Assembly: GCF_054482595.1 (NCBI RefSeq)
Contig: NZ_JBTHVH010000005.1
Strand: one strand, 5' to 3'
Length of the DNA stretch: 3,781 nucleotides
Source of the DNA: a plasmid
In this document: positions 3,001 to 3,781 of the stretch, piece after piece
Layout of the letters: the number at the start of each line of letters is the position of its first letter
Numbering within the stretch: the stretch's first letter is position 1
Program-made: the position numbers

Positions 3001-3781
3001 CATGCAGGCATGAACGATACAGTGAGGAACGCTTTTTTTTGTCACGATCTCCCCTTAACCTGCGTAAATCACCCTCCATGGTTGATTATTTTTCAACCTC
3101 AAAATGGTCATACACCTAACGCAGCCGCGATTTTCATCGCAACTGCATGAATTAAAAGAAAAAAAAGGAATGCTTCGTTTTCACGAGTAATACCCAGGTA
3201 TTAAAAACCCACTGTAATTACATGAAAATAAAGAAATAAAAGGTAATACCGGCGTATTACCACGTACGCGGGCAAGCGAAAAAGCTATAACGCTTCCCGG
3301 CCGACAGGCGGCCCAGAATCCACAGGGGCATGCAGGATCTCTTCAGTAACCTTCGCCATTAAATCAAAAAGGTCATATTCGCCGGGAAGCTGCGTATCAG
3401 TCGAACCCCGTTGTTCATCATATTCAGATGGCATGGGGTGATATCCAGTAGCAGAGAGGTTGTTAGCGGGTTTCGGGGCGCAGCCCTGAACCAGTCACGT
3501 AGCGCTAGCGGAGTGTATACTGGCTTAAAATGTAACATCGCAGAAACATAATGCATAGCTGCCACATAAAGCAGGTGTAATGCCATGGCGGGCGCGTAAG
3601 CAGAAAATGCAGGACCGGTGATATTCCGCTTCCTCGCTCACTGACTCGCTACGCTCGGTCGTTCGGCTGCGGCGAGCGGGGAAAGCATGCCCGGGAATGG
3701 AAGCTACATGATCCACAGATTCAGGGGAGAAGCGGCAGAAGAACATGTGCGCAGGAAGAAAGGCCCGGAGAGAGGATCCCG

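What the first reader, a model, noticed from the sequence alone, without database searches (positions are those of the whole stretch)
3470..3560. bom/oriT retained without any mob genes: a trans-mobilizable cargo carrier
Seen in sequence: a clear ColE1-type bom sequence is present, but no ORF in the window resembles MbeA-D/Mob proteins or Rop. Established knowledge: bom-plus, mob-minus ColE1 derivatives (pBR322 being the textbook case) are mobilised when Mob and conjugative functions are supplied in trans. Inference: the Wzz-like cargo and the IS1 can spread between hosts carrying helper plasmids.
Basis: partly seen in the sequence, partly recalled or inferred. Interest (0 to 1): 0.35.

Follow-up and report, generated by a model that had tools for sequence, protein, structure and literature searches.

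The report
ColE1 transfer origin without mob genes
The window is a whole 3.8-kb ColE1-type plasmid that carries an intact ColE1-type transfer origin (bom/oriT) but no mobilisation genes, so it can probably move only when a related Mob-encoding plasmid and a conjugative plasmid share its cell, which is a common and well-described plasmid type.

Summary
Window 3466-3533 is a ColE1-type bom/oriT. It matches ColE1 at 59 of 62 core positions and is 100% identical to the oriT of a 5.1-kb mob+ sister plasmid. The nic core GTGTATACTGG|CTTAA is exact and occurs once. The window closes on itself as a complete 3,781-bp ColE1-like replicon, and tblastn and Pfam find no MbeA/B/C/D or Rop anywhere in it.

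The interpretation (trans-mobilisable, like pBR322) is supported in silico. It describes a known class, the "pOriT" ColE1-like plasmids (Ares-Arroyo et al. 2023).

Three refinements:
- The mob genes were not simply deleted. The 2.3-kb mbeCABD block of the sister plasmid is replaced by an unrelated 956-bp module (cer accessory sequences, 11-bp repeats, a MazE C-terminal fragment). One junction lies in the cer core and the other in the bom core, which contains nic.
- The oriT is strictly ColE1-type. It lacks the F-like and R64-like oriTs that let pEC156-type plasmids use conjugative relaxases directly, so two helpers are needed.
- The Wzz-like cargo is frameshifted and the IS1 copy looks defective.

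Function is untested. The finding is ordinary: a new member of a known kind.

The parts
3466..3533 (+). Conserved ColE1-type bom/oriT core. The relaxase and accessory-protein recognition side lies 5' of nic on the + strand.
   Evidence: Alignment to ColE1, pBR322 and the mob+ sister plasmid. 100% identical to CP057279 from 3466 onwards. BLAST hits in 4,813 PLSDB plasmids typically span window 3463-3533.
3472..3490 (+). Imperfect 8-bp inverted repeat TTCGGGGC-GCA-GCCCTGAA, about 35 nt 5' of nic. This distal repeat is also shared with R64 oriT.
   Evidence: DNA fold. 24/27 match to R64 oriT over window 3468-3494.
3513..3528 (+). nic core GTGTATACTGG|CTTAA. The predicted nick is between G3523 and C3524 on the + strand.
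   Evidence: Single exact copy, identical in ColE1. The nick position comes from the ColE1 literature as I recall it (Francia et al. 2004; Varsaki et al. 2003) and was not verified here. The strand is inferred from the mob genes lying on the 5' side in the sister plasmid.
3534..3620 (+). Non-conserved stretch 3' of nic. It is the first DNA predicted to enter a recipient. It is 100% identical to the mob+ sister plasmid but unrelated to ColE1, p9123 and CP099031.
3621..3781 (.). Conserved ColE1 block (TTCCGCTTCCTCGCTCACTGACTCGCT...), which continues across the circle junction into the replication origin.
   Evidence: Its identity as the ColE1 single-strand initiation/primosome assembly region is from memory.
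1..600 (.). ColE1-type replicon (RNAII/ori region). RNAI lies at 436-538 (+).
   Evidence: Rfam RF00106, 97.2 bits, E = 3e-18. 77% identical to the ColE1 ori region.
2479..2507 (-). cer-like Xer site core: XerD arm 2479-2490 (TTATGGTAAAT, 11/11 to ColE1 cer), 6-bp central region 2491-2496, XerC arm 2497-2507. Accessory sequences extend to about 2700. This is the left junction of the exchanged module.
   Evidence: Alignment to ColE1 cer, NC_001371 3680-3945. Identity switches from CP057279-like to CP099031-like within 2480-2500.
2510..3465 (.). 956-bp module that occupies the place of mbeCABD. It is 99.4% identical to CP099031 (a HindIII-type R-M plasmid) and 94% identical to p9123.
3285..3434 (-). 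49-aa ORF that aligns with the C-terminal toxin-binding tail of MazE-type antitoxins and lacks the N-terminal DNA-binding fold. A terminator-like hairpin follows at 3261-3242. It is not a mob gene.
   Evidence: BLASTP to E. coli MazE residues 53-81, E = 1e-4. PDB 7d2n_E residues 49-78. No Pfam or NCBIfam hit. RefSeq names it AbrB/MazE/SpoVT. Terminator scan.
829..1492 (+). Wzz/GNVR-like (FepE-like) cargo gene, split by one extra A in the A-run around 1113-1121.
   Evidence: Pfam Wzz (weak) and GNVR 1.7e-8. Comparison with the intact 220-aa ORF of CP057279.
1587..2342 (+). IS1-family element. The insA start is ATA instead of ATG, and it sits at the same position in the mob+ sister plasmid.
   Evidence: Pfam HTH_Tnp_IS1 6.6e-28 and DDE_Tnp_IS1 8.4e-60. 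Sequence reading. Shared with CP057279.

Best explanation
The window is a complete 3,781-bp ColE1-like plasmid of the oriT-only ('pOriT') type. Its cis-acting transfer origin is a ColE1/MOBP5-type bom. Shown: the recognition side (3466-3523, including the imperfect 8-bp inverted repeat) and the nic core are intact and identical to those of a naturally occurring mob+ sister plasmid, and no relaxase, accessory or Rop gene is present. Inferred: when a co-resident ColE1-type plasmid supplies MbeA (relaxase), MbeC and MbeB, MbeA nicks the + strand between G3523 and C3524. A conjugative plasmid (IncF or IncI1 are the efficient helpers for ColE1) supplies the coupling protein and the pore. The strand is transferred 5'->3', so the origin region enters first and the 956-bp module enters last. 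The relaxase then rejoins the strand at the reconstituted nic. The mob-less state arose by exchange of the whole interval between the cer core and the bom core, not by a simple deletion or by IS1.
For: The oriT aligns with ColE1, and 3466-3781 is 100% identical to mob+ CP057279. There is a single exact nic core. There is no Mob or Rop. The circle is complete. RNAI scores 97 bits. The core stays 95-100% identical while both flanks diverge or are replaced among seven related plasmids, and its boundaries recur across 4,813 PLSDB records, which suggests constraint on the core itself. Near-identical replicon-plus-cargo DNA occurs in E. coli from humans, cattle, poultry, mouse, frog and water, and in Salmonella Hadar (98% identity), which fits horizontal spread. 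From the literature: bom acts in cis and the Mob proteins may be on another plasmid (PMC9282650). ColE1-like MOBP5 plasmids are mobilised efficiently by IncF and IncI1 (PMC6856555). ColE1-like pOriT plasmids with an oriT_ColE1-like origin are described as a class (PMC10123127). An almost identical 60-nt sequence was called a ColE1-type oriT in a small sul2-strA-strB plasmid whose backbone was not compared here (PMC11213556).
Against: No transfer experiment exists for this plasmid. The MbeC binding site in ColE1 could not be located from the papers held, so I cannot exclude that part of it lay in the replaced DNA left of 3466. Arguing against that, most plasmids share homology only from about 3463. 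In strain OW1E2, host of the closest overall relative, the three co-resident plasmids found are two conjugative plasmids and one non-mobilisable plasmid, with no MOBP5 helper; a fourth neighbouring accession is not in the collection and the chromosome was not checked. oriT-only Col440I qnrB19 plasmids typed as MOBP-mobilisable failed to transfer in filter matings (PMC9101827). Some relaxase families strongly prefer cis substrates (MOBQ4, PMC6856555), although ColE1 is the classical trans-acting case.
Confidence: 0.8

Rival explanations
1. The bom is a non-selected passenger. It survives only because it sits about 100-250 bp from the essential origin and single-strand-initiation region, and these plasmids spread vertically or by transformation or transduction rather than by mobilisation.
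For: No MOBP5 helper among the three co-resident plasmids found in the host of the closest relative. Failed matings of comparable oriT-only Col plasmids (PMC9101827). Branger et al. class the p9123-type relaxase-negative plasmids apart from the mobilisable families (PMC6807383).
Against: The stretch 3528-3620 lies between the bom core and the origin and is freely replaced (no match in p9123, CP099031 or ColE1), while the core stays 95-100% identical. Linkage to ori therefore does not explain the conservation. The core boundaries recur in thousands of plasmids. pOriT plasmids are statistically enriched in multi-plasmid cells (PMC10123127).
Confidence: 0.12
2. The plasmid is mobilised directly by the relaxosome of a conjugative plasmid (F TraI, or R64 NikA/NikB), as shown for pEC156 and pSe-Kan, so no Mob helper is needed.
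For: pEC156 is a mob-less ColE1-type plasmid that is mobilised by F and R64 through F-like and R64-like oriTs (PMC4743918). The window shares a 27-nt repeat with R64 oriT.
Against: There is no similarity to the F oriT region (best E = 0.94). Against R64 oriT only the distal repeat matches. The 17-bp NikA-binding repeat A and the CATCCTG|TC nick region are absent at the bom. No nikA-like gene is present.
Confidence: 0.04
3. Mob genes exist but were missed, either because the window is only part of a larger replicon or because a novel small protein (the 49-aa ORF next to bom) acts as the nicking accessory factor.
For: The 49-aa ORF occupies the position that mbeC holds in the sister plasmid and is conserved at 92-100% nucleotide identity among relatives.
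Against: The window closes into a circle of the same size class as its relatives (3.67-3.73 kb). The ORF aligns only with the C-terminal toxin-binding tail of MazE antitoxins and lacks any DNA-binding domain. An accessory factor without a relaxase would not make the plasmid autonomous anyway.
Confidence: 0.03

Closest known systems
pBR322 / pMB1-derived bom+ mob- vectors
   Same: ColE1-type replicon. The bom core is nearly identical (GGGGCGCAGCC.TGA.CCAGTCACGTAGCG.TAGCGGAGTGTATACTGGCTTAA). No mbe genes. Mobilised only when Mob proteins and a conjugative plasmid are supplied in trans.
   Different: pBR322 is an engineered deletion derivative and keeps rop. The window is a natural plasmid without rop, in which the mob interval is replaced by another natural module.
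ColE1-like 'pOriT' plasmids with a pMOB-like oriT_ColE1 (PTU-E1/E22; Ares-Arroyo et al., NAR 2023, PMC10123127)
   Same: Small ColE1-like plasmids that lack a relaxase, keep the ColE1-like oriT, and are closely related to mob+ plasmids of the same taxonomic unit. They are predicted to need both a pMOB and a pCONJ helper.
   Different: That paper emphasises origin by relaxase gene deletion. Here the evidence is for replacement of the whole cer-to-nic interval.
pRHB31-C01_4 (CP057279) and identical 5,101-bp E. coli plasmids (mob+ sister)
   Same: 99.7-100% identical over the replicon, bom, Wzz-like gene, IS1 and cer core (window 3466->2509).
   Different: The sister carries 2,278 bp with mbeC, mbeA, mbeB and mbeD where the window has the 956-bp MazE-fragment module.
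p9123 / pCERC1 family (RelN_RNA type 1) and CP099031 (HindIII-type R-M plasmid)
   Same: They share the cer-accessory, repeat and MazE-fragment module next to a ColE1-type bom core (94% and 99.4% identity), with no relaxase.
   Different: They have a different ori allele (85-88% identity), a different sequence 3' of nic, and different cargo (sul2-strAB, or an R-M system).
pEC156 / pSe-Kan / pCERC7-type mob-less Col plasmids
   Same: Mob-less ColE1-type plasmids that depend on helpers through cis-acting oriTs.
   Different: Those carry mimics of the oriTs of conjugative plasmids (F-type, or R64-type with or without nikA) and need only one helper. The window has neither.

Membership tests
ColE1-type (MOBP5/HEN) oriT = bom | Sequence homology to the ColE1 nic region, with the conserved nic core TATACTGG|CTTA | tested here: met
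   59/62 identity in the core. The nic core is exact and occurs once. E = 1.9e-40 for the 230-bp alignment.
ColE1-type (MOBP5/HEN) oriT = bom | Imperfect inverted repeat 5' of nic on the nicked strand | tested here: met
   TTCGGGGC/GCCCTGAA at 3472-3490, the same arrangement as in ColE1. The fold energy itself is not exceptional (z = -0.9).
ColE1-type (MOBP5/HEN) oriT = bom | Position next to a ColE1-type replication origin, on the side where the mob (or rop) genes lie | tested here: met
   The order ori - bom - (mob in the sister plasmid / module in the window) is colinear with ColE1 and CP057279.
ColE1-type (MOBP5/HEN) oriT = bom | Site- and strand-specific nicking by MbeA, and helper-dependent transfer | not testable with these tools
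   Needs a nicking assay and matings.
oriT-only, relaxase-less plasmid (pOriT) | No relaxase or accessory mobilisation gene on the complete replicon | tested here: met
   tblastn of the ColE1 and CP057279 Mbe/Rop ORFs. Pfam and NCBIfam scans. Circular closure.
ColE1-like replicon | RNAI/RNAII antisense control region and origin | tested here: met
   Rfam RNAI 97.2 bits against a gathering threshold of 47. 77% identity to the ColE1 ori region.
ColE1-like replicon | Rop/Rom (an optional feature) | tested here: not met
   No hit to ColE1 Rop (best E = 0.45). Rop is dispensable for family membership.
IncI1/R64-type oriT (as in pEC156 and pCERC7) | 17-bp NikA-binding inverted repeat A plus the CATCCTG|TC nick region | tested here: not met
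   Only the 27-nt distal repeat aligns (24/27). Repeat A and the nick region are absent at the bom.
F-type oriT (as in pEC156 and pSe-Kan) | Homology to F oriT (nic, sby, sbm and IHF sites) | tested here: not met
   Best BLAST E = 0.94 against F 65500-67500.
cer-type Xer multimer resolution site | XerC arm, 6-8 bp centre and XerD arm, plus about 180 bp of accessory sequence | tested here: met
   XerD arm 11/11 and XerC arm 8/11 to ColE1 cer. The GGGTGGTTTGTTGCC accessory block is conserved. Function not tested.

The most novel reading that the evidence does not exclude
In this plasmid lineage the interval between the cer crossover site and the oriT nic site behaves as a swappable cassette. The same replicon and cargo (98-100% identical) carries at least three alternative cer-to-nic modules: mbeCABD, a CP099031-type MazE-fragment module, and a diverged (78-97%) allele of that module. 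Both junctions fall within the only two short sequences that site-specific enzymes act on (XerCD at 2491-2496, relaxase at 3523/3524). If the exchange is catalysed by Xer plus MbeA (initiation at one oriT and termination at another in a heterodimer), then mobility status can flip reversibly, and oriT serves as a recombination site as well as a transfer origin. The mechanism was proposed for qnrB19 plasmids by Tran et al. 2012 (title only verified). Seeing it toggle mob+ and mob- states in one lineage would be a modest extension.
Probability: 0.35. Interest if true: 0.4.

Novelty: new member of a known kind. Interest (0 to 1): 0.15.

Why it matters
The practical value is small but real. Plasmids like this one are easily mis-scored. 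PLSDB/MOB-suite calls one close relative 'mobilizable' and another 'non-mobilizable' although both carry the same bom core. Recognising the oriT tells you which helpers are needed: a MOBP5 plasmid plus an IncF- or IncI1-type conjugative plasmid, not a conjugative plasmid alone. The mosaic structure also shows that 'loss' of mob genes in small Col plasmids can be a module exchange at cer and oriT. That matters for inferring how resistance-bearing relatives such as the p9123/pCERC1 and qnrB19 plasmids are assembled. It opens no new biological question.

Tried and rejected
- pEC156-type mobilisation. I looked for F-like and R64-like oriTs because the 956-bp module is 99.4% identical to a HindIII-type R-M plasmid. 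There is no F similarity and only a 27-nt shared repeat with R64. CP099031 itself also lacks F similarity, so it is not pEC156. Rejected.
- A 9/9 match to the R64 nick motif (ATCCTGTCC, 2421-2429). BLAST E = 5.7, so it is a chance-level match with no adjacent repeat A. Rejected.
- The 49-aa ORF next to bom as a hidden accessory protein (RHH or AbrB). It aligns only with the C-terminal tail of MazE antitoxins. Rejected as a mob gene.
- IS1-mediated deletion of the mob genes. The IS1 copy is at the same site in the mob+ sister plasmid. Rejected.
- Exact source of the window. There is no full-length identical record in PLSDB or in 5,426 complete E. coli genomes.
- The 11-bp repeats as a pSW200-type copy-number element. 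pSW200 has 41 copies of a 15-bp repeat, a different arrangement (PMC3628316, abstract only). Its position relative to the RNAII promoter is from memory. Left unexplained.
- The Varsaki 2009 and Tran 2012 full texts, which I wanted for the MbeC site and the recombination model, are not held.
- The accessions first tried for F and R64 were absent. RefSeq versions were used instead.

Full report
**What the window is**

The 3,781 bases are a circularly permuted, complete ColE1-like plasmid.
- Rfam finds RNAI at 436-538 (+) with 97.2 bits.
- The first 600 bases and the last 160 bases align with the ColE1 origin region.
- The two window ends are adjacent in relatives: window 3781 aligns with CP057279 position 4996 and window 1 with position 4995.
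- No record in PLSDB or in 5,426 complete E. coli genomes matches the window at full length and identity. The best hits are 3.6-5.1-kb E. coli and Salmonella plasmids that match in blocks.

**The observation**

- There are three substitutions in the 62-nt core. The stretch TAGCGGAGTGTATACTGGCTTAA is identical.
- The 16-nt nic core occurs once, exactly, at 3513-3528 on the + strand, against 0.04 expected by chance.
- An imperfect 8-bp inverted repeat (3472-3479 and 3483-3490) precedes it, as in ColE1.
- A 101-bp query around the site hits 4,813 PLSDB plasmids.
- The nick position (CTGG|CTTA, here G3523|C3524) is from my recollection of the ColE1 literature (Francia et al. 2004; Varsaki et al. 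2003). I could not read those papers here.
- A 2024 paper prints an almost identical 60-nt sequence and calls it a ColE1-type oriT (PMC11213556).

**Absence of mob and rop**

- I translated ORFs across the ColE1 rop-mbe region (NC_001371 1550-4000) and across the mob region of the sister plasmid CP057279 (150-2550). tblastn against the window gave nothing for MbeA, MbeB, MbeC, MbeD or Rop (E >= 0.03). The only hits come from ORFs that run over the shared non-coding bom and cer DNA.
- Pfam on ten window ORFs found only Wzz/GNVR and IS1 domains. NCBIfam added nothing.
- The 49-aa ORF next to bom (3285-3434, minus strand) sits where mbeC sits in the sister plasmid. It aligns only with the C-terminal 30 residues of MazE-type antitoxins. 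It is a MazE fragment, not a relaxosome protein.

**How the mob-less state arose**

- Window 3466->3781->1->2509 is 99.7-100% identical to the 5,101-bp plasmid pRHB31-C01_4 (CP057279). There, 2,278 bp carrying mbeC, mbeA, mbeB and mbeD lie between the cer site and bom.
- In the window that interval is a 956-bp module unrelated to the mob genes. It holds cer accessory sequences, an 11-bp tandem repeat array and the MazE fragment.
- The module is 99.4% identical to CP099031 (a HindIII-type restriction-modification plasmid) and 94% identical to p9123.
- Identity to CP099031 runs from about 2480 to 3527. Identity to CP057279 runs from 3466 round the circle to 2500.
- The two overlaps, where the crossovers must lie, are 2480-2500 and 3466-3527. 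The first holds the XerD arm, the central region and the start of the XerC arm of a cer-like site. The second is the bom core and contains nic.
- Three other mob-less relatives carry the same replicon and cargo at 98-100% identity but a diverged allele (78-97%) of the module.
- So one replicon lineage carries at least three alternative cer-to-nic modules. IS1 is not responsible, because it sits at the same place in the mob+ plasmid.
- This matches the model named in the title of Tran et al. [quoted passage not shown]
- Homologous recombination within these short conserved islands would give the same picture, so I cannot tell the two mechanisms apart. Nor can I tell which state is ancestral.

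**Which helpers are needed**

- pEC156, a mob-less ColE1-type plasmid with a HindIII-isoschizomer R-M system, is mobilised directly by F and R64 through F-like and R64-like oriTs (PMC4743918). I therefore tested for those origins.
- The window has no similarity to the F oriT region.
- It shares only the 27-nt distal repeat with R64 oriT. The NikA-binding repeat A and the R64 nick region are missing.
- The origin is therefore strictly ColE1-type. It needs a MOBP5 relaxosome (MbeA, MbeC, MbeB) from another plasmid as well as a conjugative plasmid.
- The cognate MbeA of CP057279 is 55% identical to ColE1 MbeA overall, and about 85% identical over the first ~150 residues of the N-terminal relaxase domain, by my count from the alignment.
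- The literature held here states that ColE1 bom acts in cis and that the Mob proteins can be on another plasmid (PMC9282650). It also states that IncF and IncI1 are efficient helpers (PMC6856555).

**Is the site under selection, or just linked to the origin?**

- The stretch between nic and the conserved origin block (3528-3620) has no match in p9123, CP099031 or ColE1, while the core stays 95-100% identical. Conservation therefore belongs to the core, not to its neighbourhood.
- PLSDB holds 4,813 records with this bom (E <= 1e-5) and 3,582 with an MbeA-family gene (E <= 1e-20). Many MbeA-family hits are in Neisseria, Acinetobacter and other genera, which account for few of the bom hits by the genus tallies. 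So more than a thousand bom-bearing plasmids lack the relaxase. This is a rough count.
- Against function: in strain OW1E2, host of the closest overall relative, the three co-resident plasmids found are two conjugative plasmids and one non-mobilisable plasmid, with no MOBP5 plasmid. A fourth neighbouring accession was not in the collection.
- Also against: comparable oriT-only qnrB19 Col plasmids failed to transfer in matings (PMC9101827).

**Comparison with what is known**

- This is the natural counterpart of pBR322.
- It is a member of the 'pOriT with pMOB-like oriT_ColE1' class described by Ares-Arroyo et al. for the ColE1-like taxonomic units PTU-E1 and PTU-E22 (PMC10123127).
- Branger et al. 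had already catalogued relaxase-negative RNAI plasmids, including the p9123 family with a 'MazE' gene and a family with a fepE (Wzz-like) accessory gene (PMC6807383).

**Verdict**

The refinements are:
- the mob block was exchanged for another module, not deleted;
- the origin is strictly ColE1-type, so two helpers are needed;
- the Wzz-like cargo is frameshifted (one extra A at 1113-1121) and the IS1 copy looks defective.

I rate it a new member of a known kind, with low interest.

Noticed in passing
window 829-1492 (A-run at about 1113-1121): The Wzz/GNVR (FepE-like) gene is split into 104-aa and 129-aa ORFs by one extra A (A9, against A8 in CP057279, where a 220-aa ORF is intact). It is either a real pseudogene or a homopolymer sequencing error. 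The region is about 25-30% G+C against about 50% for the backbone.
   Followed up: partly
window 1587-2342: IS1-family element whose insA start codon reads ATA instead of ATG. It has no flanking target-site duplication. Immediately to its right (2343-2358) lies an inverted 16-nt copy of origin sequence 471-486, which may be a scar of an old rearrangement.
   Followed up: partly
window 2849-2973: An array of about 9.6 copies of an 11-bp unit (TGATGTAAAAG) with a 42-bp super-period and strong G-over-C skew. It lies between the cer accessory region and the MazE fragment and is conserved in CP099031 and partly in p9123. Function unknown. The 174-aa minus-strand ORF annotated over it in CP099031 is probably spurious.
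   Followed up: partly
window 3285-3434 (-) and 3242-3261: The 49-aa ORF that RefSeq names 'AbrB/MazE/SpoVT family DNA-binding domain-containing protein' contains only the C-terminal toxin-binding tail of MazE, not the DNA-binding fold. No toxin gene is present. It is followed by a terminator-like hairpin and is conserved across p9123-type plasmids. It may be an orphan anti-toxin peptide or a remnant.
   Followed up: partly
window 247-372 (+): The 41-aa ORF that PGAP annotates as 'replication initiation protein' in relatives lies inside the RNAII/origin region of a replicon that needs no Rep protein. The annotation is probably spurious.
   Followed up: no
PLSDB records NZ_CP070933.1 and NZ_CP067249.1: MOB-suite typing is inconsistent. 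p30COLEC-3 is called 'mobilizable' and pOW1E2d 'non-mobilizable', although neither has a relaxase and both carry the same bom core (pOW1E2d is 100% identical to window 3460-3560).
   Followed up: partly
window 2479-2507 (-): The cer-like core has a 6-bp central region (CAGATG) where ColE1 cer has 8 bp, and its XerC arm differs from that of the sister plasmid at 2501-2502. It is a hybrid-looking site at the module junction.
   Followed up: partly
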